A stretch of DNA of 64,000 nt, from assembly GCA_004431415.1 (NCBI GenBank), contig QPMI01000289.1:1-64000 (forward strand). The letters run 5' to 3'. The notes beneath the pieces were generated by a model that ran no database searches, had not been told where the DNA came from, and saw nothing but the letters and a program-made list of their open reading frames with translations. Position numbers and translations under genes: made by a program. The first letter of the stretch is position 1, and each line of letters starts with the position of its first letter. The DNA comes from Cyanophora paradoxa CCMP329. Taxonomy: Eukaryota; Plantae; Glaucophyta. This document shows, piece after piece, positions 2,670 to 64,000 of this stretch.

Positions 2670-3014
2670 CGGGCTCGCTAAGTCGCCCTATACAGTACCC
2701 CCCAAAATTACTGAATAAGAATACTGGATCTTTATACTAGCAGACCGCGCCCGGCCCTGTGCAAGTGCGGCAAGTGCGGGCCGCGCGCGGAGGTGCAAGG
2801 GGGGGTACTGGTACACATTGCAGGGTACTTGGGGGGGAGGCGGGGGGCGCAGGGGAGGGGGGCGGAGGGGGCAGCTAGAGAGGCAAGGCGGGCGGCTGGG
2901 CGAGGCGGGCGGGGTGGCGAGGCGGGTAGGTGGGGTGGCGACGCGGGCGGCGGCACCAGGTGGGCGGGCAGGCGAGGGCGGTGGCGGGCGGAAAAGCGGC
3001 ATCCGAGGAGAGAA

Positions 3015-3400: not shown

Positions 3401-3535
3401 GCGACGGGCGCCTAGGCCTAGGGAGCAGCTGCTGAAGCAGCGGGCGCGCGGAGCAGCTGGGAGCAGCGGGCAGGGAAGCAGCCCGGCGCGGCGTACTAGG
3501 AGCAGCTGCGAATACTGCGACGCCGCCACCCTCCG

Positions 3536-22700: not shown

Positions 22701-24523
22701 GCCTGCCGGACGGAGCCCAGCAGGCGGTCATCAGCGGGCACACGGACAACATCTACGCCCTCGCCCTCTCGCCCGTGCGCACCACGCTTGCATATGCATG
22801 CGCATGGAACAGAGTCTCCCGCGTGCGATGCGATATCGATGGGTGGCGCGCAGGACGGAACGCTCTTCGTGTCGGGATCGCGGGACAGAACGGTGCGGCT
22901 GTCGGCTGCGGCGACGGTGACGGGCGAGCGGCGGGAGCTGGAGCCGAACGGGTCGACGCGGCGCGTGCCCAGCCTGGCGGTCGCGGCAGCGGAGGGGGCG
23001 ATGCGCTTCGCGGCGGGGAGCTACGACGGCAGCGTCCGCATCCGCTCCGCGGCCGACGGGGCGCTCCTCCGCCTGATGAAGAACCCGCCCGTGGACGGCT
23101 CCGACGCCTTCCCCGCCGCCGTCGCCGAGTCCTCCGCCGCCGCCGAGGTCAACGCCGTCGCCATCTCCGCCGTCCGTTCTGCCCGTACCTCAATATTAAT
23201 GGCGCTAGTGCCGAATTCTTGCTAATCATTATATGCCGGCAGGAGGGGGATTTGGTGGCTTCCGCCGGGACTGACCGCTGGCTGAGCCTGTGGAAAGCGG
23301 ACGGGTCTCTTCTCAGCCACTGGCATGCGCATCACGACGCCATTTGGGGTCTCTCCATGTCGCGGGTACGATGGACCGCGATATTCTAGGCCCCAGGTCG
23401 GCGCTCATTATAAACCTTCCGGGCAGGACGGGAACACACTGGCGTCGTGTTCGGCGGACGGGACAGTGCGGGTGTGGAGGGCGGCGGGCGGTTTCCTGCT
23501 GCGGGAGTACAAGGGCCACGAGGGTCGCGTCTTCGCCGTCGCGGTCTCGCCGAAGGACGCGGCGCTGGTGGCGTCGGGCGGCGAGGACGGGAGCGTGCGG
23601 CTGTGGCAGAACGGCGAGGAGGTGGCCGCGCTGCGGGCCAGCGCCGAGCCCGTCAAGGCCGTCGCCTTCTCGCCGGTCGGCCCCTCCCCGTGCCATGACC
23701 ATCCATCCCCCTCCGCTGATCGCTGGCTGCGCAGGACGGGGCGCTGGTGGCGGCGGCGGGCTGCGACAACACTGTGCGCCTGTGGGGCGTCGCGGACGGG
23801 CGGCTGCGCTGGTCGGCCTCGGGCCACAGCTGGTGGATCACCTCGCTCGCCTTCTCGCCGGTGCGGGCCGCGTGGCGCGCCCATCCCGCAGCGCCCGCCC
23901 TGACGCCGCCCATGGCCAACAGGATGGTTCGAAGATCGCGTCGAGCAGCTTCGACCGCAGCGTGCGCACGGCCCCAACCGTGGCGGCGCCTCGCGTCCCG
24001 TGCGCTCTGCTGAGCCCGGCCCGGCCGCAGGTTCGGGTGTGGGGTGCAGAGGACGGCGCGCCGCTGTGGACCCTGCGGGGCCACACGAGCTGGGTCTTCA
24101 CAGTCGCGTTTACGCCGGTGCGCCAGCTGCTCGAGCGCGCCCGCGCCTGCGCCGCCTGAAATGCAGCGCAGGACGGCAAGCACGTGCTCTCGAGCGGGGT
24201 CGGCGGCAGCATTCGATTCTGGCGCCTCGGGGAGGGGCCGGGGGCGGACGGGGCCTGCGTCCGCCGCGTGGGGCTCACCCAGCAGCTCGAGGCCGTCGCC
24301 ACCCACGTCAGTGCTTCTACTTGCGCATTACATGGCTTCGCCCCCTCCGATTGCGAGTCCTTCGCTCACGCGCCTTTGGATTCCCGCGCTGCAGGTGGAC
24401 GAGACGACGAAGGCGGGGGAGGTGCTGCGGCGGGTCCTGGCGGACCGGGCCGCCCCTCCGCCTGTCGGCTACCCGCGCTCGGATCCCATCGATCCGGCAG
24501 CCGGCTTTTTCGTTTCGAAATGA
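16745..24523 (+). CDS. NACHT (STAND NTPase)-pentapeptide repeat-WD40 protein, copy A
   Basis: Starts MGGVCCKK, then a helical N-terminal region; Walker A-like LLLSGDSGCSKTT, Walker B LLVLLDSYDE, VVACR, PFSPEQIEEYV, RTPFVLSI, YRFLH-SLKEYF, AACNALTVLN; pentapeptides GADLREADLSGACLQEANLSGADL; about 14 WD40 repeats. Some frameshifts occur in G runs. Confidence 0.88.
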
Positions 24524-28500: not shown

Positions 28501-31500
28501 TAGAGGACTTCGAAGCGGTTTCGCCGTCGCGTCTCGTGTACAGCGGCTGCGCGCGGGTCGCGTTATTGTCGGCAAATTTGTGGAGATCTAGATTGAAATG
28601 CGAACGCGTAGGTTGGGCAGCTGCGCGCACCAACAAGCCTGTGCGGACGTTCTCGAGTACGGCGCCGCGCAGGTCCGCCCCCGACAGGTTCGCCTCCTGG
28701 AGGCAGGCCCCGCTGAGGTCGGCCTCACGCAGGTCGGCGCCGGCGGCCTCCATGCGGTACAGGTCGGCCCCCGGGGCGCGCACGCCGCGCAGGTCGGCCC
28801 CCGCGAACGACTCGCCGGCAGCGTTCAGCACCGTGAGCGCGTTGCACGCGGCAATGGCATGATGTGAGTCGATGGCGACCCCAACGTCCCGCGACCGGCG
28901 GACGACCTCCCACAGCACCTCGCGGAACTCGGGCGTGCGGCGCGCGCGCTCCGCCAGGAACCGCACGATCGCCGAGTCGTCCACATACGACCTGCAGTCG
29001 AGCCCCCCACGGCGTTAACGTGCGATTCGCATTCTAAGGATACGTGATCATGAGGCTCTTCAGGTGTGAAGCGCACCGGCGGCCAAGCTCCGTGATGACC
29101 TCGATTCCCTTGAGGCGTTCGATGCCGTTCGCGATGAAGTACTCCTTGAGCGACGCTGCGCGGCCCGCGATCAGAACCGCGGCACGACCCCGAGCAAGGG
29201 GGACTCGCCGTGAAGGAAGCGGTAGAGGATCTCCTGGCCGCGAGCGCCGGCGTCGGCGGAGCGTTCAGCATCCAACGGCGCGGCTAACAGCGCCGCCTCC
29301 TTTGAGCGCTGCGAGGATGTGGTTAGGTCGGGGCAGCGGTATATAGCTAGCGGGCCGCGGCGTGCCTGAAGCTTCTTCAGTATCTCGGAGGCGCGCCGCA
29401 TGGAGCGCTCGGGATCCGGCAGGGCCTCGATGGCTTCGAGGGAGATAGGCTGCCCGAGACCAGTCGACTTGGCGAGGGGCACCGAGAAGGCAGTGGTGCG
29501 AGCGCGGTCCATCAGCCGCGCGATCTCAATGCAGAGGCGGCGGCACTCGTCGGCCAAGGCCGCCGAACCGCCCTGTGAGGCCCAACGCTTCTCCTCCCGC
29601 TCGAGCCAGCCGGCCACGAACGCGTCGTACACGTCGCGCAGGAGCACGCGGTCGCCCTCCGTGAGGCGCCGCCCGGCGCCGCCCGCCGAGTTGGCCTTGA
29701 TCTTGGGAAGAGCGCGGAGGGCGATGGAGAGCACGAAGGGCGTGCGGATGACGTCCAGCAGGCCGTGCACCTCCCGCAGCGTCTCCATGTGCCTGCCGCG
29801 CGCTTCGAGTAAGATACGTTCAGAACAGACAGATCAGCAATGCAAGCTGCGCACCACTTGGCGTCGCCGTCGGGCCGCGCCTCCTTGACCCACAGGTCGA
29901 CGTACTCCTTGATCTGCAAAGGGATTCGCGCGAGGCGGGAGCGGCGGGGCGCGGCTGGGGCCGCCGGGCGCGCCTGCTCGGGGGAGAAGGGGCAGGTCCA
30001 CGCCTCGCACACGGAGCGGGCGCCCGACGCCTCGTCCAGCGCGAACCGCTCCTGCGGCACCGGCGCGCGTGAGCGCTCCATTCGAGACTCGCCTGGGGTC
30101 GACCGGGCCGCACCCGGTAGCGGGCCCCGAGGCAGGGGACGAAGGTGGCGCGGCAGGCGACGACGAGGCGCGCCGCGAGCCGCGGCAGATCAGCGTCCAT
30201 CGCGTACGGCGGCTGCCGTCACATCAGCGCGCCCCGCCGCACGGAAGGAGGAGAGCGACACACCTTGCCCTCCCGCCCATCGGTCCCCTCGTCGTACGCA
30301 TCCAGAAGAACGAGGAGGCCGCCGCTGCATGAGTGGTGAGTGGAGCAGGCGGGCAGCGGCGGGTGACACGGAGGCACCGTTTGGGGAGTTCGGCGACCGG
30401 AGAGGACTGGTCCGCGGGGAGGCCGGCCGACAGCAGCAGCGCGTCGGCCAGGCGGCGGTGGGGCCCGATCGAGGGGAGGGAGAGGAAGACGGGGAAGGGC
30501 CGCCCGGGCCGCCATGCGGCGAGCAGGCGGCGGTGGAGGCGGCGGAGGACGGTCGTCTTGCTGCAGCCCGAGTCGCCGGAGAGGAGGAGGCTGCGGTAGG
30601 GCCCCCGGCCGGCCGGCCCCTCGCCCCGCTCCGCGAACGCCGCGAGCGCCTCCTCGAGGTCGAAGCGGGGCGCGTCCGGCGCGGCGCGCGTCTCCGCCTC
30701 CGCCGTCGCCTTCGCCGGCACGTACACGAGCAGGTGCGCCGCCTCCTCCACTGCTTTCCTCGCCAGCTCGGCCTCCTCCGCCTCGTACTTGGCCAGCGCG
30801 GCCGCCCGCGCCTGCTGCAGCGCCTCGGCGAGCCGCTCCTCCGCCGGCGCCGCCGCGCGCGCCATGCGCAGCAGCTCCGACGGGCCGCCGCCCGCGAGGG
30901 GCGCGACGGGGGCGGCCGGCGGCACCGGCGCGAGGCGCGGGCAGGGGAGGGCCTTGCACGAGTCGGCGGCCGCGAGGGCGGCGGGGTCGAGGCGGAGGGT
31001 CCGCTTCGCGGCGGCGCGGGCGGCGGCGGCGGCGGCGCTGCTGCTCTTCGAGGCGGCGAGGCGGCGGAGCCAGGTGAGGGCCTCCTCGGCGACCGGGCCG
31101 CCCCCTCGAGGGCGGCGAGCGAGGCGAGGGCCCCGCCGCCGCCTCCAGCGGCCCCGCGCCGGCGTCGCCGGCCTCGACGGCGCGGCGGGCGAGCATGTAG
31201 ACGTGCGCCGCGGCCCGCGGCCAGCCGGCGCCCGCGAGGCGGAAGAGGGCGGCGCAGAGCGCCAGGGCGAGCTCGCGGCAGGCGGCCGCCTCCGCCAGGG
31301 CCGCCCCGTCCGCCTCCTCCAGCAGCGCCTCCAGCTCGTCCCCGGCCCCGCGCGCCGCCAGCGTCCCCAGCAGCCGCGCCCGCGCGAACCAGCGCTGCTT
31401 GCTGGGCGGCTGATCCGCCCCCGCCACCACCCTCGCGGCGCCCCACACCTGCGGACCCGCGGGTGAGCGGCGAGAAAGGCAGCCAGGGTTCGGCAGCGTG

Positions 31501-33267
31501 AACAAATCGATCCGTGGCGGCGAGCGCTCTGGCGGGGCCGGGCGGCCGCCGGGGGCGCGCCGCACCTCGCGGAGGAGCTCGGCCGCGTCGTTCCGGTGCT
31601 CCGCGCACAGCAGAACGATGTCGATCACCTGCGCCGGCATCGGCGGCGGCGGCGGCGTGGCCGGTGGTGGCAGAGGGGCGGGCGGTGTAGGGCGGAGGGG
31701 GGAAGAAGGGGGGGGGGGGGTAGAAGAGGGGGGCGGGGGGCAAGGGCGCACGGTGGCGGCGCCGCAGGTGGCGACGCCCTCGGCCACGAGGCGGCCGGCG
31801 CGGAAGAGCACCACCGCCACCCGCCCTGGCCCGCCCCGTCAGCCCCGACACGCACCGCCGCGCGCGGGGCGGGCGCACCGGCGGCCTTCGCGCGGCGCAC
31901 GGCGTCGCCGAAGCGGTCGAAGTCGGAGCGCGCGGCGACGAGCGCCTGCTGCGCGAGCCGCGCCGCCGCCTCGGCCCGCCACCAGCCCTCCCCCGCGCCT
32001 GCCGCGCGATCTCGTCCAGCCGCCCGCTCAGCGGCCGCACCAGGTCCTCGTGCCCCACCCGCGCCCGCGCGTCCCCGCTGCCCGCCCCGTCAGCCCCGGG
32101 CCGCGGCGGGGGGCGGGGGCGGGCGCACCGTCGCCGGCGGCCTCGAGGGCGGCGAGGACGGCAGAGACGAGCTCGAGGCGCGCGTGCGAGTCCGCGTCCT
32201 GCGGCGCCGCCCCCTGCCCCCGCGCCCCTCAGCCGCGGCGCCCCGGCGCGGCGGCGCGGGCGGGCGGGGCCTGCCTTGAAGACCGCGGGGTCGAGCTGCG
32301 CGGGGGCGGCCTCAGGGGCGCGGCGGGCCTCGGCGGGCGGGCGGGCGGGGGGCCACCTGGGCGGCGCAGAAGCCGGTGACGCTGCCCCAGTCGGAGGAGG
32401 AGAAGGTGCCCGGCGGGAGGCGCTCCAGCGTCCGGGCGACGGCGCCCAGCAGCCGCGGGTCCGCCAGCTGCGACCCGCCCGCCTTCTTCAGCAGCGCGTC
32501 CGCCAGCTGCCGGCCCCGCATCAGAGCCGAGCGCGGGAGTGGGAAGCGGGCGGCGGGCGCGCCCTGCGGCACAGTTCGGCGTCGCCGGAGGCGACGAGGC
32601 CGCAGATGTCCGCGAGCTGCTCCTCCGTCGGCGCCCCCTCGCTCGCGAACACAGAGAGCGCTGCGCGCGGCCGCGCGCGTCGGGCGGGGCCGAGCGCGGG
32701 GGACTGGACGGGCGCACCCTTCTCGCAGAGACGCCGCAGGCTCGCGCGAGCGGCCGCCGCGTCGCCGCCGAACCCGTCGCGAACGAGCGGCATCGACTCC
32801 GCCGCGTCCGCCTCGTGCGCGAGGCGGTACAGGGCGGCCAGCTGCGCCAGGCTCCGCGCCTCCCACGCCCCGCCCAGCGCCCGCAGCGCCGCCGCTTCGC
32901 ATACGCCGTCGATGCCGCCGGCGCCAGCCGACGCTCCGCCGCCGAACTCGAGCTCCAGCGACACGTCCGCGACCTCCAGCGCGGCTGCCGCGGCGGGAGG
33001 CTTCTCGCCCTTCGCGGGCGGCGCGTCATCGCACATCGGGGCCGGCTTCTGCGGCTGCTCCTGGCGCTGCTTCTCGGGCGCTGCTGGCGCCGCTGGCGCT
33101 GCGCTCGCGACCTTCTTCTCGCCGCTGCTGATCGTCAGCACGCCCTCCTCGCTGGACGCCGGCGCGCTGCTCTTCGGCTTGACCGGTGCGCACGCAAATG
33201 GCAGCCCATTGCAATCGAGGTGCACGGTGAGCGGCTGTGGGCTCTTCTTGCAGCACACGCCGCCCAT
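25571..33267 (-). CDS. NACHT-pentapeptide repeat-WD40 protein, copy B (inverted paralog)
   Basis: Same exon order and motifs as copy A on the opposite strand (MGGVCCKK, GDSGCSKTT, LLVLLDAYDE, pentapeptides, WD40s), ending ...ALAFLRDA*. Confidence 0.88.
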
Positions 33268-34271
33268 GCTTCTCGCTCGGCTGCAGCTGTTCTCTGGATC
33301 AGCGGGTTAAGCACGCACGGCCCGGGCCCAAAAACGAGCAGCAGGCGAGCGAGTGACGCCGCGCGCTCGCTCGAAGATCGAAGACGAACATGCTTGTGAA
33401 GCCTGGGCGCGCACCCGAGAATTGAAGCGACGAATGCGAAACGTCAGGATTTGATGGCGCGCGCGATGACGGCGGGCCTGGGAGTTGGGCGCACCGACGA
33501 GGCGCTGCCACTGCTTGAGCTCGAGGCGTCAACCTTGCGGGCAGGCGGAGCGTGACTGCCTCACGGGTGCTCGCGATTGGAAACGCTGTACCCGGCTGGG
33601 GTCGGACCCTCCCCCCTCAAAAGTGGATGGCGCGGCTCGTCGCCGGGCGCACCTTTAGCTAAATCGTAAGCTGACGCGAGTACAGCGAGTCAGCGACAGC
33701 TTCGCGCCTGGCGACCTTGGAAGTGGAAGTGGAAGTGGACATTGGACGTTGTACCCGGCGCGAAGAAACCCCCCCTCCAAAAAAGTGGAGCTGTTCAGAC
33801 AAGCTGAGACAACTCGCGCTGGACGCGCCTAGATCATGAGCTGACGCGAGCACAGCTGCAGCACGTGCGCAGAACTCGCGGCAGGAGACGTCCAACACGC
33901 TTTGACGAACCACGTCGACGTCAGCGGGACGTCACGGCGCGTTGCTAACCTCCGGCCAGCAGCCGCAATCGATCGATCTGGCTCTACTCTATGCGTGGAG
34001 CGATGTGCGACAGCATGAGCAGCATCAACGACGAATAGTCGAAGATCGCTCGAGCTCGGAACCTGCGTGCAGCCGACCACGTAGTCTCCGCAAAGTTGGT
34101 TTGCTTTCGCGTGCAGGATTGCTTTAGCTGCAGTCGGCCGCGGTGAACCACTTTCCGTGCGGCGCAGCGCTAGCTGTAGCGGCCGCGGGCGCCGCGTGCG
34201 CCTTCGCTGAATATACGTACCTCGAGCTCTGAGGCCTAGCAGGGCTCGAGGTTGGAGGCGGCAGCGGGGGG

Positions 34272-37863: not shown

Positions 37864-39019
37864 GGCTACTAGGTAGCTGGCTCAGCCTGGCTGATCAACT
37901 TGCTGGCAATACCGTAGAACACTTGAATATAAGCAGTACTGGTGTCTAGACTCTAAACTCTAGATCTAGACTCTAGAGACTGTGGCCGGTAATTCACCAA
38001 AAAACAAAAACTTAGTAAAGTAATGCGCGCGTGCACTAAATATTTAATAAGGCCCAATTTAAGGGGCGGCCCGGCCCGCCCACGGGCGAGCCACCCCGCC
38101 GCCCGCCGCGCCTCCGCCAGTACTAGTCCCGCGAGCCGCCCCGCGGCCCGTCGCGCCTCCGCCACGTCCCGCGACTCGGGCGCGGCCGCGGCCCGCGAGC
38201 CGCCCCGCCGCCCGCCGCCCGCGGCCGCGGCGCCGCGCCTCCGGCGCCCTCCGCCCGTGGCCTGAGCTGGCGGCCGGGCGGGGCGGGGAATCGCCGCGGC
38301 GCCGGGGATTCCCGGCAATTTCCCGCCGGGGATCCGGAAGTTGGACCGGAACCAACTTGCTGCCTGGGCCCTCCTCAAATAATAGTCGCGCCTAGGGCAA
38401 CGTACCGAGGACCCCTGAGCCGCCACCGGACGCACGGGCTTGCGGATCTTCTCCGTCATCGGAGCGACCTGCGGACGCATGTCATTTAGCAGCCGGGCGG
38501 GTACAGCACCCCCGCCGGCCGGCCATAAGAAAAATTAATTGAAAAATTCGAGATTTTTGCTTTGGAAAATGCACTCCAAAACATGATGGCTGAGAGGAGG
38601 GTACAGCAACAGTGGCGAACCTTGGGCGTCTGCAGGCTCCACCTCGGAAGCCGGCCTCGTCTGGGGCCTGCACGTGCGTGCCTCCTAGTATGAGCCACGC
38701 GTACGCTTGCGCTAGACGCTGTAGCTAGCTATAGCGATAGCGCTGGCATGGAGCAGGGTAATGGCTTGCAAATTGCTGCCGCACCTAGAGCTCGAGCTCG
38801 ATACCGCGGCCGGTGCTCCTGCGCTGGCCGCCGGGCCCGGGGCGCCAGGCCGCCGCATGCGCAGTGTCTCAGGGTCTGTCGCCGGCGAGCGAGCAGCTCC
38901 AGCGCTAGCTATATATAGCTAGCTAGCCTAGCTATAGTAGCCTATAGCTAGTAGTGCCGGCAGCTGCGCATGCAGCGCTAGCTATAGCCTAGTAGCGCTC
39001 GCTCTCTAGCTATAGCACT

Positions 39020-39301
39020 TGTCGGATGGGAGGATTCCCACCCGATTGGGCACCCGCGCAGTACTGCGCGGGGCCGGCTCCCTGTGCTGGAGCAGCTGTA
39101 GATGCAGGCTGGTGTATTCACTGTGTACCCGGAAGACTACTGACTCTGTACCCCTAAGACAGGTAGAGGCAGGCCAGCGTAGGCTACCGAGAGGTAAGCC
39201 TACAGGAAGAGAGACTATGCTAAGCCACTCAGGCTACGTCAGGCACCAACTAGCTCTAGTCACTAAGTCACCGCAAGGCCAGGGAATCGAGCCAGGCGAC
39301 A
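39020..39301 (-). repeat. 3' LTR (282 bp)
   Basis: TG...CA ends; matches 50977-51259 apart from a single-base indel by eye. Confidence 0.92.
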
Positions 39302-50976: not shown

Positions 50977-51259
50977 TGTCGGATGGGAGGTATTCCCACC
51001 CGATTGGGCACCCGCGCAGTACTGCGCGGGGCCGGCTCCCTGTGCTGGAGCAGCTGTAGATGCAGGCTGGTGTATTCACTGTGTACCCGGAAGACTACTG
51101 ACTCTGTACCCCTAAGACAGGTAGAGGCAGGCCAGCGTAGGCTACCGAGAGGTAAGCCTACAGGAAGAGAGACTATGCTAAGCCACTCAGGCTACGTCAG
51201 GCACCAACTAGCTCTAGTCACTAAGTCACCGCAAGGCCAGGGAATCGAGCCAGGCGACA
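50977..51259 (-). repeat. 5' LTR (283 bp)
   Basis: TG...CA ends; direct repeat of 39020-39301. Confidence 0.92.
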
Positions 51260-52903
51260 GCGCTAGCTAGATCTAGCGTGCGCTAGCGTTAGCTAGCTGT
51301 CTGATCATGAAAGCTTGATGCAGCGCTATATATATACATAGCTAGCTAGCACCGTGGCACTATATATATATTGAAGGATCGGAGTAGTGCGCAAGCACCG
51401 CTTTATATTCTTTCAATTAAAAACGCAGCAAAAATGTTTATGCATCCGTTCCCGGTTTTTTGTATGGGCCAGTTCGCAACATTATTGGGCAGCCGCCATA
51501 GTAAAAACCGGGAAAATTCCCGGTTTTTTTGGTAACAGGTTCGATTCCGAGTAAGCCAGTTTGACTTAGCGAATTCGAGCCGTTCTTGAGCTCGATACAG
51601 TCATCCTATCCATGGAGTCTACCTCCCACACCACACATCGATCTAGTCGACGTCTCTACGTCACCTTCGCACTAACCTGCGTACCTCTATCGAACTAGCC
51701 TGCCAGCTGAGAGTGCCGCGGAGCCTGCGCGCGGGGTGATCCTCAGAAAGGGCTGCTGCTGGGCGCAAGGAATTCGAAAGAGAGGGAGGCAGAGGCATCC
51801 GAGGGGCGCAGCAGGGCGCAGGGCGATGAGCTTCGGCTGGCGGCGGTCAGCACGACAAAGAGAAGCGAGGCAGGGGCGTGGTGCCCCCAGCAGCCTCTGC
51901 CCCAGGAGGCCCCTGCACGGCCTGAGACGCCGGCGTGCCCTGCCAGGAGGAGGTGGGGGTCCGGGGGGGGGGGGGGGGGGTCCGGGGGGGGAGGAGAGGG
52001 CGGGGGAAGGGGGAGGGGGGGGGCGCACGGCGGATCCGAGCACGGCGTAGGGACCAGGGCTGCGGGGCCAGGGCCTGGACCGGAGAAGGGGCGGGCGTTG
52101 GGGAGGGCGGAGAGGGAGGCGGGGCGTGGGGGGCCCGTGGGGCGCCCGCGGTGGCGTGGCGTGCGGGCGTGGGATAGTGAGCGCGCGTCGCGGGGCGGGG
52201 CGTGAGCGTGCCGGCTGCCGTGCCCGGCCGCACCCCCGGCGGAGAAGGCGAGCGGCGCCGGCGCCGGGATCGCGATCGGAACGCCGGGTGGAGGGTAGGG
52301 ACGGCGGCGGCGCCCAGGCCGCTGCAGCGGCAGGGGCGGGGTTCGGGGCCGCCGGTGAGGAGGTAGGCGGGGTCGGGGGCGGGGCCCGAGAGAAGCGCAA
52401 GGGGTGCACCCGCCGGGGCAAGCGGGGGCGGGGCGCAGGGCGTACCCCTCGTAGCAGGCACATAGGGGTACCTGCACAACGAGGCTTGACGGGGTACGTG
52501 TTCACGATGAGGACCAACGGCGTGACGGGTGACGTGCTATGCCCAGCCGCGCCTTGGCTTGAGGACAGCCGATTCGGGCGTTATGCGAGGCTCCTCGCAA
52601 CCGGGGCCCTTAATTTCCAATAAAAGACTTGATAAAAGAATTTGATCGCCGAATTCTTTAAGGGTTTTTTGTAAGAGCCTTTCTCATGCTATGCAAGGAC
52701 CTTAATTCCGCCAGTTAAGCGGTATTGCTAATATCATAAGCGTTCCGAAATGCAAGTAAAAATTAAGCAAGTCGCAGGGCGCGACTACGTTTTGAGGAGG
52801 GCCCAGACGCACTGATTCATAGCAAGCAGGCAGAGATAGCGAACCGTTATCTGCGGCTTTCAGTCAGCGTGTTCTACCTCGAGCGTGCAGCCGGCCGGCC
52901 AGC

Positions 52904-55200
52904 CTGGGCCCTCCTCAAATAATAGTCGCGCCTAGGGCAACGTACCGAGGACCCCTGAGCCGCCACCGGACGCACGGGCTTGCGGATCTTCTCCGTCATC
53001 GGAGCGACCTGCGGACGCATGTCATTTAGCAGCCGGGCGGGTACAGCACCCCCGCCGGCCGGCCATAAGAAAAATTAATTGAAAAATTCGAGATTTTTGC
53101 TTTGGAAAATGCACTCCAAAACATGATGGCTGAGAGGAGGGTACAGCAACAGTGGCGAACCTTGGGCGTCTGCAGGCTCCACCTCGGAAGCCGGCCTCGT
53201 CTGGGGCCTGCACGTGCGTGCCTCCTAGTATGAGCCACGCGTACGCTTGCGCTAGACGCTGTAGCTAGCTATAGCGATAGCGCTGGCATGGAGCAGGGTA
53301 ATGGCTTGCAAATTGCTGCCGCACCTAGAGCTCGAGCTCGATACCGCGGCCGGTGCTCCTGCGCTGGCCGCCGGGCCCGGGGCGCCAGGCCGCCGCATGC
53401 GCAGTGTCTCAGGGTCTGTCGCCGGCGAGCGAGCAGCTCCAGCGCTAGCTATATATAGCTAGCTAGCCTAGCTATAGTAGCCTATAGCTAGTAGTGCCGG
53501 CAGCTGCGCATGCAGCGCTAGCTATAGCCTAGTAGCGCTCGCTCTCTAGCTATAGCGCTAGCTAGATCTAGCGTGCGCTAGCGTTAGCTAGCTGTCTGAT
53601 CATGAAAGCTTGATGCAGCGCTATATATATACATAGCTAGCTAGCACCGTGGCACTATATATATATTGAAGGATCGGAGTAGTGCGCAAGCACCGCTTTA
53701 TATTCTTTCAATTAAAAACGCAGCAAAAATGTTTATGCATCCGTTCCCGGTTTTTTGTATGGGCCAGTTCGCAACATTATTGGGCAGCCGCCATAGTAAA
53801 AACCGGGAAAATTCCCGGTTTTTTTGGTAACAGGTTCGATTCCGAGTAAGCCAGTTTGACTTAGCGAATTCGAGCCGTTCTTGAGCTCGATACAGTCATC
53901 CTATCCATGGAGTCTACCTCCCACACCACACATCGATCTAGTCGACGTCTCTACGTCACCTTCGCACTAACCTGCGTACCTCTATCGAACTAGCCTGCCA
54001 GCTGAGAGTGCCGCGGAGCCTGCGCGCGGGGTGATCCTCAGAAAGGGCTGCTGCTGGGCGCAAGGAATTCGAAAGAGAGGGAGGCAGAGGCATCCGAGGG
54101 GCGCAGCAGGGCGCAGGGCGATGAGCTTCGGCTGGCGGCGGTCAGCACGACAAAGAGAAGCGAGGCAGGGGCGTGGTGCCCCCAGCAGCCTCTGCCCCAG
54201 GAGGCCCTGCACGGCCTGAGACGCCGGCGTGCCCTGCCAGGAGGAGGTGGGGGTCCGGGGGGGGGGGGGGGTCCGGGGGGGGAGGGAGAGGGCGGGGGAA
54301 GGGGGGAGGGGGGGGGCGCACGGCGGATCCGAGCACGGCGTAGGGACCAGGGCTGCGGGGGCCAGGGCCTGGACCGGAGAAGGGGCGGGCGTTGGGGAGG
54401 GCGGAGAGGGAGGGCGGGGCGTGGGGGCCCGTGGGGCGCCCGCGGTGGCGTGGCGTGCGGGCGTGGGGATAGTGAGCGCGCGTCGCGGGGCGGGGGCGTG
54501 AGCGTGCCGGCTGCCGTGCCCGGCCGCACCCCCGGCGGAGAAGGCGAGCGGCGCCGGCGCCGGGATCGCGATCGGAACGCCGGGTGGAGGGGTAGGGACG
54601 GCGGCGGCGCCCAGGCCGCTGCAGCGGCAGGGGCGGGGTTCGGGGCCGCCGGTGAGGAGGTAGGCGGGGTCGGGGGCGGGGCCCGAGAGAAGCGCAAGGG
54701 GTGCACCCGCCGGGGCAAGCGGGGGCGGGGCGCAGGGCGTACCCCTCGTAGCAGGCACATAGGGGTACCTGCACAACGAGGTTTGACGGGGTACGTGTTC
54801 ACGATGAGGACCAACGGCGTGACGGGTGACGTGCTATGCCCAGCCGCGCCTTGGCTTGAGGACAGCCGATTCGGGCGTTATGCGAGGCTCCTCGCAACCG
54901 GGGCCCTTAATTTCCAATAAAAGACTTGATAAAAGAATTTGATCGCCGAATTCTTTAAGGGTTTTTTGTAAGAGCCTTTCTCATGCTATGCAAGGACCTT
55001 AATTCCGCCAGTTAAGCGGTATTGCTAATATCATAAGCGTTCCGAAATGCAAGTAAAAATTAAGCAAGTCGCAGGGCGCGACTACGTTTTGAGGAGGGCC
55101 CAGACGCACTGATTCATAGCAAGCAGGCAGAGATAGCGAACCGTTATCTGCGGCTTTCAGTCAGCGTGTTCTACCTCGAGCGTGCAGCCGGCCGGCCAGC
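52904..55200. mobile_element. Array unit 2: intact 2297-bp non-coding element with asymmetric inverted repeats
   Basis: Starts CTGGGCCCTCCTCAAATAATAGTCGCGCC; the inverted copy GGCGCGACTACGTTTTGAGGAGGGCCCAG ends at 55103 and is followed by a 97-bp tail. Confidence 0.8.
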
Positions 55201-55689
55201 CTGGGCCCTCCTCAAATAATAGTCGCGCCTAGGGCAACGTACCGAGGACCCCTGAGCCGCCACCGGACGCACGGGCTTGCGGATCTTCTCCGTCATCGGA
55301 GCGACCTGCGGACGCATGTCATTTAGCAGCCGGGCGGGTACAGCACCCCCGCCGGCCGGCCATAAGAAAAATTAATTGAAAAATTCGAGATTTTTGCTTT
55401 GGAAAATGCACTCCAAAACATGATGGCTGAGAGGAGGGTACAGCAACAGTGGCGAACCTTGGGCGTCTGCAGGCTCCACCTCGGAAGCCGGCCTCGTCTG
55501 GGGCCTGCACGTGCGTGCCTCCTAGTATGAGCCACGCGTACGCTTACGCTAGACGCTGTAGCTAGCTATAGCGATAGCGCTGGCATGGAGCAGGGTAATG
55601 GCTTGCAAATTGCTGCCGCACCTAGAGCTCGAGCTCGATACCGCGGCCGGTGCTCCTGCGCTGGCCGCCGGGCGCCAGGCCGCCGCAGG

Positions 55690-57240: not shown

Positions 57241-57914
57241 GCTGCAGGCCTGCAGTTGCGCATGCTCGTCGCTCGGCGAATCGCTCGGTGGTTGCAGTCG
57301 CCGAGGCAAGTCGCTCGGCCTGCAGTTGCACTCGCAGAGGAAGTCGCGGAGGCGAATATACTGATACCCCCGGAGCCCAGCATAGTTAGGAAATCAACTT
57401 TTTAAGCGCCGATAGTGGTGCCGAGATCGGCGCCTAATTCCCGCAAGAAAAAAAGATCTGGCGCGCCTAACGATGAGGACCAACGGCGTGACGGGTGACG
57501 TGCTATGCCCAGCCGCGCCTTGGCTTGAGGACAGCCGATTCGGGCGTTATGCGAGGCTCCTCGCAACCGGGGCCCTTAATTTCCAATAAAAGACTTGATA
57601 AAAGAATTTGATCGCCGAATTCTTTAAGGGTTTTTTGTAAGAGCCTTTCTCATGCTATGCAAGGACCTTAATTCCGCCAGTTAAGCGGTATTGCTAATAT
57701 CATAAGCGTTCCGAAATGCAAGTAAAAATTAAGCAAGTCGCAGGGCGCGACTACGTTTTGAGGAGGGCCCAGACGCACTGATTCATAGCAAGCAGGCAGA
57801 GATAGCGAACCGTTATCTGCGGCTTTCAGTCAGCGTGTTCTACCTCGAGCGTGCAGCCGGCCGGCCAGCCAGGTACCTAGCCTAGTTGCTTCCAGGCTAC
57901 TAGTAGCGCTCGGA

Positions 57915-58075: not shown

Positions 58076-59136
58076 CCCCGGCCCCCGGATCGTACACATG
58101 GACCGTATATATACACTGGTACTAGTACATGGCAGTATGTATTACATGCACATGTTAACGTTGGGGTGGGGCTTGCGCGCATGCGGTCAAGCCCTTAATC
58201 CAGTTGCAATTGCAAGGTAAGGCCTCAAGTCCGCGCCCCGCGCGCGGCTCACTAGCTATAGGTCAATTGCAAGCCCTTGCCCCGCAGGGCTCAAGCCCTT
58301 CACCACCCTATGCACATGCACATGTTTATCGATCATGACTCAGTGATCCCGATCATGATCATGCGCATGCACATGCTTATAAGAAGTTAAGGCTTGCGCA
58401 AGGCTTGACGTACGTGCACCGTTAATTCGAAATCATTCTTTTTTCACACACGCAATTTACATGTATAGATGTTTTTTCACAAGTAATTAAGACATGAAAT
58501 TAAGACATGTCAAAAGATCATCGAAGAGATCTATATACGGAGCCCCGACTCTCGAAGAGTTTCGCGACCAATGTTTCTGCGTGTACGGTGTACCGTACGC
58601 GTGTACGGTACGGTGTACGGCGCGGCGGCGTAACGGCGCCAACGGGGCTGCGGATTTCGCATACCCAGGTGACGGAAAAAAGCCCAAGCGACCGAGAGGC
58701 TACTCGGGCGAGCGGCGAGCGCGCGCTAAGCCTAGGAGATCGCCTCGGCGAGCATATCAGCTAGTTATAAGTTATAACTGCAGCCTGCCGCCGCCACGCG
58801 TACGGCTCGTCGGCGCCGGCACCGTACCGTACCGGCCAGCGCCGCGGTCCCCGCGGCGAGAGCAGCTGGCCTTCGCAAACTCGACTCTTCGACTCTTTGC
58901 GACCTTGGAGTTTCTAGGGATAGGCACTGACGCGCCGAGCCGACCTCGCGAAGTCAGCACGGCCTTGAGCTTCTTCGAATTCCCGAAGAATACGCTGGCG
59001 ACGGGTCTCTCGCCGCCGAGTCGCCAGATAGTCGGCGGCAGCCGGTTCAGCCCAGCATCAAATTGGCACGTCTGATCGCGCATTAAGCACCGCGCGGGCG
59101 CCAGTCGCGCTGTGTCTCGGTTGCCCGCGGCCAGCG

Positions 59137-60407
59137 ATGGACGCCAGCCTTGCGGCGGCTGCGGGTTTAGGCGACCGTAACATGCCGATCGAGCAAGGAG
59201 ACGAGACACACATCGACGAGCGCGGAGCGCCGGTGCATCGAGCACCGCTGGCGCGTCCGAAGCTGGAGCGCTGCGCCTTCGTACTCCTGGACCGTGGGCG
59301 AAACTCCGGTGCGAGCCCCGTGGGGTCTCTGTGCCTGCAAACTCGCGCGTTTACGAAAACGCCGCGTGCGATGTCCTGTTCGGCAGGCTTCCAGCCGGCG
59401 GCGACGGCGGCGGAGGAGGAGGCGTGCCTGGCGTACCACATTATCTCGTACCGGCAGCTGAAGCTGCAGCCGCGGGACCCCGAGGAGGCGGCGCTCTGGG
59501 CCAACCGGAGCATCCGCGTCTCCCTCGCCTACGCAGGTGCGAGCGCAGCGCCGACCCCCCCCCCCCCCCCCCCCCCCCCGGCCGACGGAAGCCTGCAGAC
59601 GACGGGAGCCCGGTACTGCACGGGAGCGGCGTGCAGAGCCGGATGGAGGAAGGGGCGGCGTGCACGGACCTGCCCCTCCGCCACTACTCCGCCCCGCGCC
59701 ACTTCGAGCGCGCCGCCGCCGTGCGCGCCTTCGAGCGTCGGGCGCCTGCGTCCTTTTGACAGCGGGGCGCGCGCAGTGCACGATGCCGCTGGACGAGACC
59801 GGCACATCGCTCCACAGCTTCTCCATCATCGCCGCCTCCGTGCGCCCCGCCCCGCCCCGCCCCGCCTCCGTCGCGGGCGGCGCCTGACATGGCCGACGGT
59901 GTGCAGCACCGCCACGCGGGCCGAGTCTTCCAGCTCCACCTCGTCGACGCCGACTCGGGCGCTCCTGTTCCCGGCCGCATCCTCATCCACACGCGCTCGC
60001 ACGGTGCGCCCGCCGCCCGCCCGCTTGCCGCCGCCCCCGCCGGGCGGCGAGCGGGCGCGCGGCTGCAGCCTCGTGCTCGCCGGGCATCGTGGAGCTGCTG
60101 CACAGGACGTCGATCGCCTTCGCGGCGGCGCACGGGGCGGCGCCGCGTGCGCGCGGGGAAGCGGCGCTGCGGCAAGGCCGGCCGGCATCGGCGCGTGCGG
60201 GCGCACTCCTTCTCCTCGGACTCCTCCAGCTCCTCCCGCTCGGACACCGACGCCGAGGCCGACGCCGAGGGCGAGGGCGGGGGCGAGGGCGAGGGCGGGG
60301 GCGAGGGCGAGGGCGGGGGCGAGGGCGACTCGGTGCGCGGCCCAGACCGCCGCCGTGGTGGGGGAGGCCTGACGCGGGGGAAGGGTGCAGAGGGGGCGGC
60401 GGCGGGG
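59137..60407 (+). CDS. Host multi-exon gene of unknown function, interrupted by the AT-rich insertion
   Basis: Exon-like blocks (LAYHIISYRQLKLQP...IRVSLAYA|DGSPV; TMPLDETGTSLHSFSIIAAS; HRHAGRVFQLHLVD) are separated by typical introns. The last intron GTGCGC...CTGAC...GTGCAG is followed by only about 17 nt before the insertion. Confidence 0.55.
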
Positions 60408-60693
60408 CACACATAGTAAAATGCGGAGTTTTAACCCTCGGCTTAATCTTAATTGATTTTGTTGATATATCTCGTATATTCTATTTCAATCAATCGATAA
60501 TCTGTGTATATCTTATCGAATATTCATTTATTTCGATTATTTTGTATTCTTTTCGATATTTTATCGTAAATTTCTCTTATTTTCCGATTAGTCTTACTGA
60601 GTCTATCGATAATCTGTATATATTTCCGAATAATATAACTGAATCTCAATTAGATCTTGCCTCTGGTTAAAACTCCGCATTTTACTATGTGTG
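60408..60693. repeat. Perfect 29-bp inverted repeat bracketing a 286-bp segment
   Basis: CACACATAGTAAAATGCGGAGTTTTAACC (60408-60436) and GGTTAAAACTCCGCATTTTACTATGTGTG (60665-60693). Confidence 0.92.
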
Positions 60694-60945
60694 ATTGGTC
60701 TAAAAGTTAATTGATTTAATCGATATTATATTCATGTACTTTCTCGATTAAATTTAATTAAATTTAATTCATTTAATCGGAAATATATCGCTTAACTCGA
60801 TTAAGATCCATAAATGATTCATTTGTTTAATAAAACAAATAGATCTCTTATTGAATCCAATCGTAATTATACATGAAACTTATATGATTTTATCATTGTT
60901 TTATTGAGTCTAAGGGGGGACCCTTAGGATTTTTGAAATAATTGG

Positions 60946-61265
60946 GTGTCACAGGTGTCACAGGTCCATCCCAAACTTTTGAAAATTCACTCTTTATAGG
61001 AGAAACTTTGGGATAAACCTGTGACACCTGTGACACATACCATATTTAGTAAGGATCTCTTTTATAATGAAAAACTCAGTAATAATCTTATCTATGTATT
61101 TCTAATTAAATGAATAAATGATTTAATCGAGTGTCACAGGTGTCACAGGTCCATCCCAAACTTTTGAAAATTCACTCTTTATAGGAGAAACTTTGGGATA
61201 AACCTGTGACACCTGTGACACATACCATATTCAGTAAGGACCTCTTATATTGTGAAAATCTCAGT
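60946..61265. repeat. Two direct copies (185-bp period) of a 91-bp palindromic unit
   Basis: GTGTCACAGGTGTCACAGGTCCATCCCAAA...TTTGGGATAAACCTGTGACACCTGTGACAC at 60946-61036 and 61131-61221, with about 45 bp of further similarity. Confidence 0.92.
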
Positions 61266-61661
61266 GTTAGTTGGTGTAGTTGATTCAAAAAATGCATTTT
61301 ATACTCTGATTCATTGTTATTTCCTGTGAAATTTGAGTCAACTCAACCCACTTAGTCAACCCTTGCATTGAATTCGTAACAAAATCCATATACTATCGAT
61401 TAATATGAGTCAACCTTGAGTCCACTTTAATATAAATATTATATAATAGGGGGAATCAAGGGGAATGTTGAGTTTTACTGTAATGAAATCGAATAGTATT
61501 CCAATTACTTACAATAGAATTCTATCGTAAAAAATGTCCGGAATCCGGAAAATAAACATTGTAGAAAGCTACTGTAGGAAAAGGATATATTATATCTTTT
61601 TGTAACAGTTGCTATTGTAAAACAAAAGGTAAATTACCTTGATTATCATTATAGAAACCCA

Positions 61662-62060
61662 TCAAAACGGGAATCTATCATGTTTATGTCTCTCAGTCTT
61701 CTCAAATGTGAGGAAATTCATTGTTTTATCGATCTCATCTGCAACTGCTTGTGTTTTATGCTGAGCTTCTTTACCACAACTGAATATATCAATTGCTAAC
61801 ATGCCTTCATTGGAATAACAATGAGCTGTGCAATGGCTTTCATCTAATAGCAGAACCAATGCAAAACCAGGAGGTGATACTTTGCCATCAAATATTTCAC
61901 AATGTTTATGAACAATCCTAATACCTTGTCTCAATACTGCTTGTTCAAGGGTTCCCATAATCCAATTACCTAGGAAGCTAACATGCTCATAACCTGTTGC
62001 TATAGCTGATTTAGCCTTGTAATCAAGCATAACATGAAAGCCTCTGTATTTAGTCTCCAT
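61662..62060 (-). CDS. speD: S-adenosylmethionine decarboxylase proenzyme, short prokaryotic/viral type
   Basis: GFHVMLD, PPGFALVLLLDESHCTAH (E|SH pyruvoyl autocleavage site), AIDIFSCG; 132 aa. Confidence 0.9.
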   Translation of the reverse strand: METKYRGFHVMLDYKAKSAIATGYEHVSFLGNWIMGTLEQAVLRQGIRIVHKHCEIFDGKVSPPGFALVLLLDESHCTAHCYSNEGMLAIDIFSCGKEAQHKTQAVADEIDKTMNFLTFEKTERHKHDRFPF

Positions 62061-62089
62061 TAAGAATACCTTAGAAAAATTAATTACAC

Positions 62090-62362
62090 CTAATCGAACC
62101 TAATGCAAACATCCCTATATTCCACAGTGATTGATGAAGTAGCCCTTTTCCTATAAGCCTGAGAATGCTTTTTGTTGCATTCCCTACATCCTGATCCCTT
62201 CACATGATTAAATGGATATGTAAGGATCACCTTATTACACTGCAAACATCTAACAGATACTTTCTCTTGAGCTTTGATGTAATGTGTCTCACTGTAATCG
62301 AATTTATCTTTACCATGGACTGTCATAGCAGCATCAATAAACTTTTTTGTTTTACTATCCAT
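62090..62362 (-). CDS. Small zinc-ribbon DNA-binding protein (repeat unit of viral/homing endonucleases, DUF723-like)
   Basis: FI..A..VHG.DKFDYS...Y.....KV.V.CxxC......P.NH..GSGCxxC pattern. Confidence 0.7.
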   Translation of the reverse strand: MDSKTKKFIDAAMTVHGKDKFDYSETHYIKAQEKVSVRCLQCNKVILTYPFNHVKGSGCRECNKKHSQAYRKRATSSITVEYRDVCIRFD

Positions 62363-62384
62363 ACTCTATATATAACCAATATTC

Positions 62385-63218
62385 TTATGGAGCAGTATCC
62401 TGCCCAAAAATGGGGAAATATCGATTTGTCCCATAGTATTCAGCATAGGTATTCTGCTTTGCAATAAAATCGGTTCTCTCTGCAAACATCACACACTTGT
62501 AGATACCAAACTTGGTGGCTCTCACAAGAAACTGATAGTCTTCCAAACCGAAATTGACTCCATGATAAGCAATTCCGAAATTATCATATGGGGTGATCAC
62601 AACTGCAAAGTTGGGAGTTCCACCTTCAACTTGGCAAACAGCATATACATCTGGTGGGATATCAACAACCACCTTGTAGTGATCACCAATCTCAACAAGA
62701 GAGTCAACTACTGCTGTTTGTTCATTCACAACAATGGGGAATATCTTGATTATATAGGGGGCATTCATGCTGGGGACATAGGTTCGAATTCTTGTGTTGG
62801 GATCAATAGGATTGGGTTGATCATTCACAAATAGAGGCGCTCCAACAGCCCCACCAACCCTAAGACCATCACCAATATAAGCTCCCCCCGATTTGCAGTT
62901 AATAGCTCCCGACCTAGATTCAAAAGAATAAGTAGACAGAGGATCTCCATAGCTATCTGGGTCTCCATAATGAGCAGAAAAGTTTGCATTTGTGACAAGT
63001 AGCTTAGTTGTCTTAACTATTCCATTATTTTTATCACATCTGAGTTCCTGTAATCTCAGCTTGTGGGTGGAACCAAATGTATTCATTGTAGGTTGGACCT
63101 CTGTGGATTGGAGACCTTCCACATCATCAAAGGTAGCATGCTGTAAAACATGGTTTGCTGGTGCAGCTAATGAAAGCTGAGGTGTAATAATTCGTTCAAG
63201 TGGGGGTTGCTCAGCCAT
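62385..63218 (-). CDS. Putative virion fibre/spike-like protein
   Basis: Gly-rich beta segment (SGGAYIGDGLRVGG) and a C-terminal pattern (NPIDPNTRIR...VVDIPPDVY...VVITP...VMFAERTD) reminiscent of phage tail-fibre C-termini; paralogous to the adjacent ORF. Confidence 0.5.
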   Translation of the reverse strand: MAEQPPLERIITPQLSLAAPANHVLQHATFDDVEGLQSTEVQPTMNTFGSTHKLRLQELRCDKNNGIVKTTKLLVTNANFSAHYGDPDSYGDPLSTYSFESRSGAINCKSGGAYIGDGLRVGGAVGAPLFVNDQPNPIDPNTRIRTYVPSMNAPYIIKIFPIVVNEQTAVVDSLVEIGDHYKVVVDIPPDVYAVCQVEGGTPNFAVVITPYDNFGIAYHGVNFGLEDYQFLVRATKFGIYKCVMFAERTDFIAKQNTYAEYYGTNRYFPIFGQDTAP

Positions 63219-63241
63219 TTTACATTAAAGGGATATATCTT

Positions 63242-64000
63242 TTATGGGGTGGGGTCATCGATTATATCTGGTTCCGAATAAAATCCTGTTGTGAATATAT
63301 CAGCAACATTTACACCACGAAGTGCTGATACAGCTGCTATATCTGTTCTCAGTCCCATAATCATAGTATTGTATACTCCCACCTCAGTGACAAACAGATC
63401 ATAGGTAAATGTCAAATTGTTATAAACACAATATCCTCTGCCAAAATGGTTCGAAGCTTGAACAAAGAATAAGTAGTTGTGACCTGGTTGATTATTATTG
63501 GCTCTACACATGGAAAGCATTGAAGTGGGAAGAGGAATATTTCTTCTTACTCGATCAGTTCCTGTAATGGAAACTAATTCCGAATTCTCAAGAGTTACAG
63601 AGGATGCAACATAGAAATGCAAAAAAGGTTGCTGTGCAACAGGTGTGTAGAAACGAATTCGTTGTGGGTTCTCAGCATTTTGCTCTAGAGTATCTGGGAC
63701 ATCATTATACGAAATTGAGGATGAAAGTTGACCTGAAACTCTGCAGCCACCACCAATAAAAGCTCCTCCTGATCTCACAGTTACAGCAGCAGTGTTTTTA
63801 TCATAATCAAGGGCTTTCAGATCAACACTGTAAGCATCTGGACCCCCATTAGTAGGTTGGAAGAAATTAGCATTAGTTACAAGGAGTCGAGTTGTTTTCA
63901 CCACACCAGAATTCTTATCAGCTCTCAGCTCTTTAACTCGAATAATCGAATTTTTGTCAAATGAGTTACCATTGGAATTGGGTCTCTCTGTGGATTCTAA
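63242..64000 (-). CDS. Paralogous putative fibre/spike-like protein, 5' end outside the window
   Basis: The frame stays open to 64000 (LESTERPNS...RVKELRADKNSGVVKTTRLLVTNANF) and aligns with the neighbour's LQSTE...RLQELRCDKNNGIVKTTKLLVTNANF; shared SGGA(F/Y)IG and (L/E)RTD. Confidence 0.6.
   Translation of the reverse strand, partial: LESTERPNSNGNSFDKNSIIRVKELRADKNSGVVKTTRLLVTNANFFQPTNGGPDAYSVDLKALDYDKNTAAVTVRSGGAFIGGGCRVSGQLSSSISYNDVPDTLEQNAENPQRIRFYTPVAQQPFLHFYVASSVTLENSELVSITGTDRVRRNIPLPTSMLSMCRANNNQPGHNYLFFVQASNHFGRGYCVYNNLTFTYDLFVTEVGVYNTMIMGLRTDIAAVSALRGVNVADIFTTGFYSEPDIIDDPTP

What the first reader, a model, noticed from the sequence alone, without database searches (positions are those of the whole stretch)
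60408..64000. AT-rich virus-like element inserted into an exon of a GC-rich host gene
Seen: a base-sharp compositional boundary shortly after a 3' splice site, a structured non-coding end, then intronless packed ORFs. Known: protist genomes carry endogenous Polinton-like viruses and virophages that stand out as low-GC islands. Inference: a recent, possibly intact endogenous virus. No capsid, packaging ATPase, polymerase or integrase is visible in this window, so the class cannot be assigned.
Basis: partly seen in the sequence, partly recalled or inferred. Interest (0 to 1): 0.8.

Follow-up and report, generated by a model that had tools for sequence, protein, structure and literature searches.

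The report
Algal endogenous virus splits host gene
This is one end of a low-GC element found in many copies in an algal genome (likely Cyanophora paradoxa), likely a polinton-like virus of an already catalogued set; it cuts a predicted host gene short and carries a SAM-decarboxylase-type gene, two predicted fibre genes and a fold-back tip that would likely prime its own copying.

Summary
GC falls from 75% to 36% at 60408, 17 bases into the seventh predicted exon of a 295-codon open host frame. One unbranched contig crosses the junction in 4 of 4 DNA runs laid (27 letters on the element side). Element contigs are 18-71 times deeper than host contigs, and the same tip joins other flanks, so this is a multi-copy family with a defined end. 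The tip folds into a perfect 29-bp stem around a 228-nt loop. Four intronless ORFs follow: a class 1b SAM decarboxylase, a DUF723-like protein and two paralogs predicted to be trimeric fibres. Capsid, ATPase, integrase, far end and TSD are outside the window and untested. The host is likely Cyanophora paradoxa, where 66 of 156 catalogued glaucophyte PLV-type elements carry this decarboxylase (PMC12220804, Table S6). So it is a new member of a known kind. Added here: the large-loop terminal fold-back, and CpG depletion of the genes beside a CpG-rich loop. The scan had not noted this element, but had noted another PLV with fold-back ends in this genome.

The parts
59137..60407 (+). Predicted host gene, 5' part: exons 59137-59308, 59387-59536, 59599-59720, 59777-59839, 59907-60003, 60069-60332, 60391-60407; function unidentified
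   Evidence: Six introns of 56-78 nt, all GTGCG...CAG; 295 codons without a stop up to the junction; GC3 0.85 as assembled, 0.91 with two read-supported one-base insertions. No Pfam or homolog hit; no spliced RNA contig seen.
60391..60407 (+). 17-nt stub of predicted exon 7, cut by the element; its last 5-6 bases are the candidate target-site duplication (untested)
   Evidence: Acceptor ends at 60390, branch-like motif at 60369; junction contig 60299-60434.
60408..60693 (.). Terminal fold-back: perfect 29-bp arms (60408-60436, 60665-60693) around a 228-nt AT-rich loop with CpG cores mostly 20-22 nt apart
   Evidence: Loop CpG observed/expected 2.6; spacings 22, 22, 17, 20, 11, 20, 22, 20 over 60473-60627.
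60934..61265 (.). Two 147-nt direct repeats (60934-61080, 61119-61265), each holding the same 91-nt hairpin
   Evidence: 137 of 147 alike, cores identical; z -8.4 and -8.8. Rfam matches are generic hairpins far below gathering scores.
60408..61661 (.). Non-coding end, likely all or part of a terminal inverted repeat (mirror copy not visible)
   Evidence: 1,254 nt to the first stop codon.
61662..62060 (-). Class 1b S-adenosylmethionine decarboxylase-type proenzyme, 132 aa, self-cleavage motif E74-S75-H76 intact
   Evidence: PF02675, E 2.8e-11, 44.1 bits against a cut-off of 25; invariant residues; TIGR03330 44.4 bits, below its cut-off of 75.65.
62090..62362 (-). 90-aa DUF723-like zinc-finger protein, possibly an endonuclease remnant (that link is recalled)
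   Evidence: Atlas first hit DUF723 cluster, score 0.96, 204 of 256 features shared; weak PF14311, E 0.0096.
62385..63218 (-). ORF3, 277 aa, predicted trimeric fibre: shared N-terminal module plus beta-sandwich head
   Evidence: Three-copy model score 0.80, best control 0.00; N-terminal ~125 aa shared with 5 distant proteins, 3 of which end in a C1q-like head.
63242..64000 (-). ORF4, more than 252 aa (start outside the window), paralog of ORF3
   Evidence: 32% identity over 227 aa, E 2e-33.

Best explanation
The stretch from 60408 is one end of a multi-copy, low-GC element that interrupts a predicted host gene, and it is likely an endogenous polinton-like virus (PLV) of Cyanophora paradoxa from the catalogued SAM-decarboxylase-bearing set. 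Shown: defined terminus, fixed junction, many diverged copies, the terminal fold-back, the four ORFs. Inferred: a 15-30 kb genome continues to the right with capsid, A32 ATPase and replication genes; it was inserted by an rve-type integrase, leaving a 5-6 bp duplication; the host frame now ends at a stop supplied by the element; copies are held silent by host CpG methylation, which over many cycles eroded CpG in the genes. On excision the 3' end would fold back so that its last base pairs flush at 60693 and primes synthesis into the genome, with the spaced CpG motifs and twin hairpins as protein-binding sites. The two fibres would attach the virion to cells, and the decarboxylase would most likely feed polyamine synthesis.
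For: Junction contig 60299-60434 with 0 differences in X1, X7, X14, X2 at depth 78, 75, 72, 57, beside host contigs at 85, 79, 76, 64. Single element contigs at 1,726-6,482 against 92-98 for a unique host contig. Tip joined to other sequence in X15 (3 contigs), X21 and X24. Named relatives of the fibre family are C. paradoxa gene models, 6 records on 6 contigs (ORF3 vs P0017 30% over 136 aa, E 6e-10). PMC12220804 Table S6: of 156 glaucophyte elements listed under 'PLV and Mixed', 66 have AdoMet_dc, 139 an A32 ATPase, 85 rve, 0 a tyrosine recombinase, 49 pPolB. PMC10120064 Tables S1/S4: 366 capsid hits in C. paradoxa. Trimer model 0.80 vs best control 0.00; the mark was reached by 21 of 30 proteins solved as pairs and 0 of 23 single chains, calibration was on two copies, runs agree in at least 74% of contacts, pLDDT at least 59. 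ORF CpG observed/expected 0.15-0.41, codon-junction CpG 7 vs mean 38.5, 0 of 2,000 shuffles as low; the 30 two-kb bins left of 60001 are 0.94-1.27. C. paradoxa methylates 32% of CpG and its viral genes are enriched among methylated genes (PMC12344493). Terminal-hairpin priming is proposed for PLVs and virophages in bioRxiv 10.64898/2026.07.28.741278.
Against: No hallmark gene, far end or TSD could be examined; no genome is held. The junction contig has 27 letters on the element side, under the tool's 31-letter rule. The host species rests on distant fibre relatives, run size (96-124 million letters, against 99.9 Mb) and unchecked scan notes. Table S6 gives group totals, so this locus is not shown to be among the 66. 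The closest decarboxylases with context (52% and 49%) lie in giant-virus contigs, and only 2 of the 156 glaucophyte elements match the paper's polinton capsid profile; their capsids resemble NCLDV capsids. Depth ratios are blurred by GC bias and possible free copies. At several places every laid contig differs from the window, so this copy's private bases or assembly errors cannot be told apart.
Confidence: 0.7

Rival explanations
1. It is the end of an integrated dwarf relative of giant viruses (mriyavirus/Gamadviridae-like), which would replicate by an HUH-initiated rolling mechanism using the terminal hairpins as origin.
For: The decarboxylase's nearest context is NCLDV (L002 with PF04451 capsid, E 9e-64). 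Cyanophora element capsids hit NCLDV capsids by HHpred and 15 of 156 have an NCLDV-type minor capsid. Unchecked scan notes report multi-copy mriyavirus-like proviruses in this genome.
Against: The main text of PMC11253617 has 0 occurrences of 'decarboxylase', 'fiber', 'integrat' or 'endogenous'. No sequence look-alike of this element among the scan's notes. 66 decarboxylase-bearing elements exceed the 15 with NCLDV-type minor capsid.
Confidence: 0.14
2. It is a capsid-less satellite or large DNA transposon derived from a PLV, moved in trans; or the 286-nt fold-back is a separate MITE-like element with 29-bp terminal repeats sitting at the edge.
For: The unit begins CAC and ends GTG, as some cut-and-paste transposons do (recalled). 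X21 and X24 contigs hold the tip but stop inside the unit, at 60676 and 60641. Scan notes describe capsid-less elements in this genome.
Against: In X15 and X17 the unit runs on into 60694 and beyond; summed depth over the unit is not higher than over the genes (rough); two predicted fibres imply a virion.
Confidence: 0.09
3. It is the edge of a giant endogenous viral element (GEVE) of a nucleocytovirus.
For: Class 1b decarboxylases are carried by Algavirales (PMC9992855); GEVEs are reported in C. paradoxa (PMC12344493 section 9).
Against: Tens of copies with one shared terminus do not fit a 100-Mb genome if each were hundreds of kb (inference). The tree clade with the NCLDV homologs is 87/89, not starred.
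Confidence: 0.05
4. The join is an assembly chimera with contaminant or organelle DNA.
For: The assembly has one-base errors nearby: reads add bases at 60033, 60052, 60133, 60154 and lack one at 60445. The bridging contig has only 27 letters on one side.
Against: The same mismatch-free junction contig at host depth in 4 of 4 DNA runs from 4 samples; no relative of ORF3 among 24 candidate stretches in prokaryote genomes.
Confidence: 0.02

Closest known systems
Glaucophyte (Cyanophora paradoxa) endogenous PLV-type elements of Bellas et al. 2023 (PMC10120064) and Bulzu et al. 2025 (PMC12220804, Table S6)
   Same: Likely the same host; low-GC multi-copy insertion; AdoMet_dc gene (66 of 156); phage-like fibre genes.
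   Different: This locus is not shown to be in their lists. The passages and tables I read do not describe the terminal fold-back, the CpG pattern or this fibre family, and the decarboxylase has 0 mentions in the Bulzu main text.
Halocafeteria seosinensis virophages and PLV subtype 4 with terminal palindromes (bioRxiv 10.64898/2026.07.28.741278)
   Same: Inverted repeat flush with the element end; proposed hairpin priming in elements without pPolB.
   Different: Theirs are tight palindromes (52 nt in subtype 5) found with a gap limit of 10; here 29-bp arms enclose a 228-nt loop that such a search would miss, followed by twin 91-nt hairpins.
Class 1b AdoMetDC of Algavirales and phages (PMC9992855)
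   Same: Small self-cleaving bacterial-type enzyme with intact E-S-H motif; nearest homologs with context are in giant-virus contigs.
   Different: Substrate untested; some viral homologs are arginine or ornithine decarboxylases. No spermidine synthase in the visible part.
Mriyaviricetes / Gamadviridae (PMC11253617)
   Same: Small eukaryotic dsDNA virus with NCLDV-derived genes.
   Different: Defining genes (VLTF2, VLTF3, HUH) not visible; no decarboxylase or fibre in that paper's main text.

Membership tests
Polinton-like virus (endogenous) | Double-jelly-roll major capsid, minor capsid and A32 packaging ATPase | not testable with these tools
   Only 3.6 kb is in the window; no genome held; no related locus with the fibre genes was found.
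Polinton-like virus (endogenous) | Terminal inverted repeats at both ends, 14-40 kb apart | tested here: inconclusive
   One defined end shown; the mirror copy is outside the window.
Polinton-like virus (endogenous) | rve integrase with 5-6 bp TSD, or tyrosine recombinase without | not testable with these tools
   Right junction unavailable. Prior: rve 85 of 156, tyrosine recombinase 0 of 156.
Polinton-like virus (endogenous) | Integrated in host DNA at many sites, GC-contrasting, intronless packed genes | tested here: met
Polinton-like virus (endogenous) | Phage-like trimeric fibre genes (common, not defining) | tested here: inconclusive
   Trimer model passes, 0.80 vs 0.00; monomer model pLDDT 39.6, best fold match Z 5.1, rmsd 2.5, 69 aligned, within noise.
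Mriyaviricetes | NCLDV-type capsid, VLTF2, VLTF3, HUH endonuclease | not testable with these tools
   Would lie outside the window.
Class 1b AdoMetDC (PF02675) | Pfam gathering score and intact self-cleavage serine | tested here: met
   44.1 bits vs 25; E74-S75-H76, H80, C95 invariant in 11 of 11 aligned.
Class 1b AdoMetDC (TIGR03330 equivalog, SAM as substrate) | Equivalog cut-off score | tested here: not met
   44.4 bits vs 75.65; substrate therefore not assigned.

The most novel reading that the evidence does not exclude
The decarboxylase is an anti-silencing gene: on reactivation it drains SAM and makes decarboxylated SAM, starving the host's CpG methyltransferases in the way phage SAM-lyases starve restriction-modification (both analogies recalled), while the element keeps a spaced CpG array in its fold-back origin as a methylation-sensitive switch although its genes have lost most CpG. 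This would be a metabolic counter-defence against epigenetic silencing in an endogenous eukaryotic virus.
Probability: 0.1. Interest if true: 0.78.

Novelty: new member of a known kind. Interest (0 to 1): 0.33.

Why it matters
As a class it is expected: hundreds of such elements are catalogued in this alga. Its value is in details that can be tested across tens of copies in a culturable host with a published methylome: whether a large-loop terminal fold-back primes PLV replication, why 42% of glaucophyte elements keep a SAM decarboxylase that 15 of 19 host groups lack, and whether insertion really knocks out a host gene in a lineage where no empty allele is visible.

Tried and rejected
No whole genome held, so the far end, TSD and hallmark genes were not examined. 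Viral-contig scans: ORF3 no match, terminal 21-mer 0 matches, decarboxylase 0 of 4 candidates, its alignment 1 of 38. Metagenome scan with the fibre alignment 0 of 141; prokaryote genomes 0 of 24; GenBank phages no match for either protein. Exact look-up of three element proteins: 0 of 3 in the collection. Atlas for ORF3: recognition 2156, below the 2300 mark, hits are unnamed viral clusters. Fold searches on the low-confidence monomer gave only weak fibre and tailspike matches; PDB sequence hits of the fibre alignment come from the C1q heads of relatives, not from ORF3. Host gene: my recalled guess of TAF2 had no support; 0 of 26 candidates for exon 2, 0 of 6 exon pieces in Pfam. A window-wide count of intron-like patterns did not exceed shuffles (25 vs mean 21.4, max 32), so it is not used; the exon coordinates were off by 1-2 bases and were corrected. 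No RNA holder listed; the four runs guessed to be RNA (X15, X17, X21, X24) show no contig joining the host exons, which is no evidence on expression. Flip-flop inversion of the loop: the two listed contigs that link loop and interior (X15, X17) have the window's orientation; tables were cut and short contigs cannot show it, so untested. The regular CpG spacing (59 of 20,000 random placements) was measured on a stretch chosen after looking. Sigma-70 promoter scan at chance level, 16 vs 16.4. Rfam: 6 sub-threshold miRNA hairpin matches, rejected. Literature: 'Cyanophora'+'mriyavir' 0 papers, 'Cyanophora'+'Polisuviri' 0; some searches returned only PMC12220804; preprint 10.64898/2026.10.13.758929 has 0 mentions of the host or the enzyme. 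bioRxiv supplements and the per-element sequence sets of the two PLV surveys were not seen and may list this locus.
Full report
Observation. The best GC change point between 59800 and 61000 is 60408. GC is 0.75 over 59000-60407 and 0.36 from there to the end. The element's first 29 bases are a perfect inverted repeat of 60665-60693; the 286-nt unit folds with z = -10.7 and 0 of 200 shuffles as stable. Two 147-nt direct repeats follow, each with the same 91-nt hairpin. After 1,254 non-coding bases come four minus-strand ORFs separated by 29, 22 and 23 nt.

Is the junction real? Of 24 runs listed, 14 DNA runs of one organism hold 0.67-0.70 of the words. I laid 4 of the 14. In each, one 136-nt contig spans 60299-60434 without a difference, at depth 78 (X1), 75 (X7), 72 (X14) and 57 (X2), next to host contigs at 85, 79, 76 and 64. 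It carries 109 host and 27 element letters, which is short of the tool's 31-letter rule; it stops where the many-copy sequence begins. Because it does not branch at 60407, no common empty allele is visible in these runs (inference; contigs drop rare variants). Single element contigs have depths of 1,726-6,482 against 92-98 for the unique host contig, 18 to 71 times higher. GC bias or free copies could inflate this, so 'tens of copies' is the safe reading. The same tip is joined to other sequence in X15 (1 contig from 60408, 2 from 60409), X21 and X24 (from 60408), so the terminus is defined to within one base. Variants differ by several percent (X15: 117 differences over about 1,800 nt), and X2 and X7 show a subfamily with a changed outer arm.

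The host gene. Seven predicted exons joined across six GTGCG...CAG introns of 56-78 nt give 295 codons without a stop up to the junction; GC3 is 0.85 as assembled and 0.91 once two one-base insertions seen in the reads are applied. The first in-frame stop lies inside the element. The gene has no Pfam or homolog match and no spliced RNA contig was seen, so it is a prediction, and its fate after the insertion is unknown.

The element's genes. 61662-62060 is a class 1b SAM-decarboxylase-type protein (PF02675) with an intact self-cleavage motif, below the equivalog cut-off. In metagenomes 13 of 68 candidate stretches (12 loci) encode relatives; the closest, L002 (52%) and L003 (49%), lie among giant-virus genes, L002 beside an NCLDV capsid. 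A tree puts it with these at 87/89, not a starred branch. A 16-kb viral contig, L001, has a more distant homolog beside a D5 primase-helicase and a collagen fibre. 62090-62362 is DUF723-like. ORF3 and ORF4 are paralogs. ORF3 has 2 full-length relatives at 63% and shares its first 125 residues with 5 distant proteins, 3 of which end in C1q-like heads. A three-copy model scores 0.80 against a best control of 0.00; that mark was reached by 21 of 30 proteins solved as pairs and 0 of 23 single chains, on a two-copy calibration; runs agree in at least 74% of contacts at pLDDT 59 or more. A constant N-terminal module with exchangeable trimeric heads is what a virion fibre looks like (inference). The monomer model and fold searches were weak.

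Host and class. Two of the distant fibre relatives, with four further cluster members, are Cyanophora paradoxa gene models. Unchecked scan notes name the same species for this genome. Bellas et al. (PMC10120064; I saw searched passages, section 6 and searched rows of Tables S1, S2, S4) count 366 capsid hits in that genome. Bulzu et al. (PMC12220804; searched passages, section 10, Table S6) list 156 glaucophyte elements under 'PLV and Mixed': 66 with AdoMet_dc, 139 with A32 ATPase, 85 with rve, 0 with tyrosine recombinase, 49 with pPolB; AdoMet_dc is also in 3 cryptophyte groups and absent from 15 of 19 host groups. The table gives totals only, so membership of this locus is inferred, not shown. 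No defining PLV gene could be tested.

Mechanism. Shown: a defined, multi-copy end fused to host DNA. Inferred from the family: rve-mediated insertion with a short duplication, and virion formation. The ORFs are strongly CpG-poor (0.15-0.41; junction CpG 7 vs mean 38.5, 0 of 2,000 shuffles) with TpG/CpA excess, while host-side bins are 0.94-1.27 and the loop is 2.6. C. paradoxa methylates 32% of CpG and its viral genes are enriched among methylated genes (PMC12344493; passages and section 9), so long residence under methylation is the likely cause. The decarboxylase most likely supports polyamine supply, as shown for Algavirales homologs, though some viral homologs act on arginine or ornithine (PMC9992855, passages).

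Rivals. A mriyavirus-like provirus (0.14) fits the NCLDV-like capsids of Cyanophora elements and scan notes, but PMC11253617 (passages) mentions neither decarboxylase nor fibres. A capsid-less satellite or MITE (0.09), a giant-virus edge (0.05) and a chimera (0.02) fit worse.

Verdict. A real insertion and most likely a new member of a catalogued kind. The fold-back geometry, the CpG contrast and the undiscussed decarboxylase are worthwhile, testable details. Interest 0.33.

Noticed in passing
window 60033, 60052, 60133, 60154, 60445: Reads add one base at four GC-rich host positions and lack one at 60445, so the assembly has indel errors; two of them shift the frame of predicted exon 6.
   Followed up: yes
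window 16288-24504 and 25626-33727: Large inverted duplicate: about 6.2 kb at 82% and 2.1 kb at 95% identity; one ORF at 17904-20603 has a weak AAA/NTPase match.
   Followed up: no
window 51259-55687, 38362-39301, 57470-57873: Tandem pair of about 2.3-kb units at 99% identity, with near-identical pieces at 38362-39301 and 57470-57873; may be the long terminal repeats of an element spanning 38-56 kb, but 0 of 10 ORFs tested there matched Pfam.
   Followed up: partly
window 60416-60445 (X2, X7 loose ends): A subfamily with 5 substitutions in the outer arm of the terminal stem; whether the inner arm compensates was not testable.
   Followed up: no
L001:27-13176: 16-kb viral contig with a D5 primase-helicase, SAM decarboxylase, collagen fibre and deoxynucleoside kinase: a free small virus carrying the same enzyme family.
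   Followed up: partly
L002:1907-13890: Freshly fetched giant-virus-like contig (62% GC) with NCLDV capsid, ABC1 kinase, RNase III, D5 helicase and the closest decarboxylase with context; L003 has the same gene order around the enzyme.
   Followed up: partly
P0016, P0017, P0033-P0036: C. paradoxa gene models that share ORF3's N-terminal module but carry different C-terminal parts, suggesting head swapping among this alga's viruses.
   Followed up: partly
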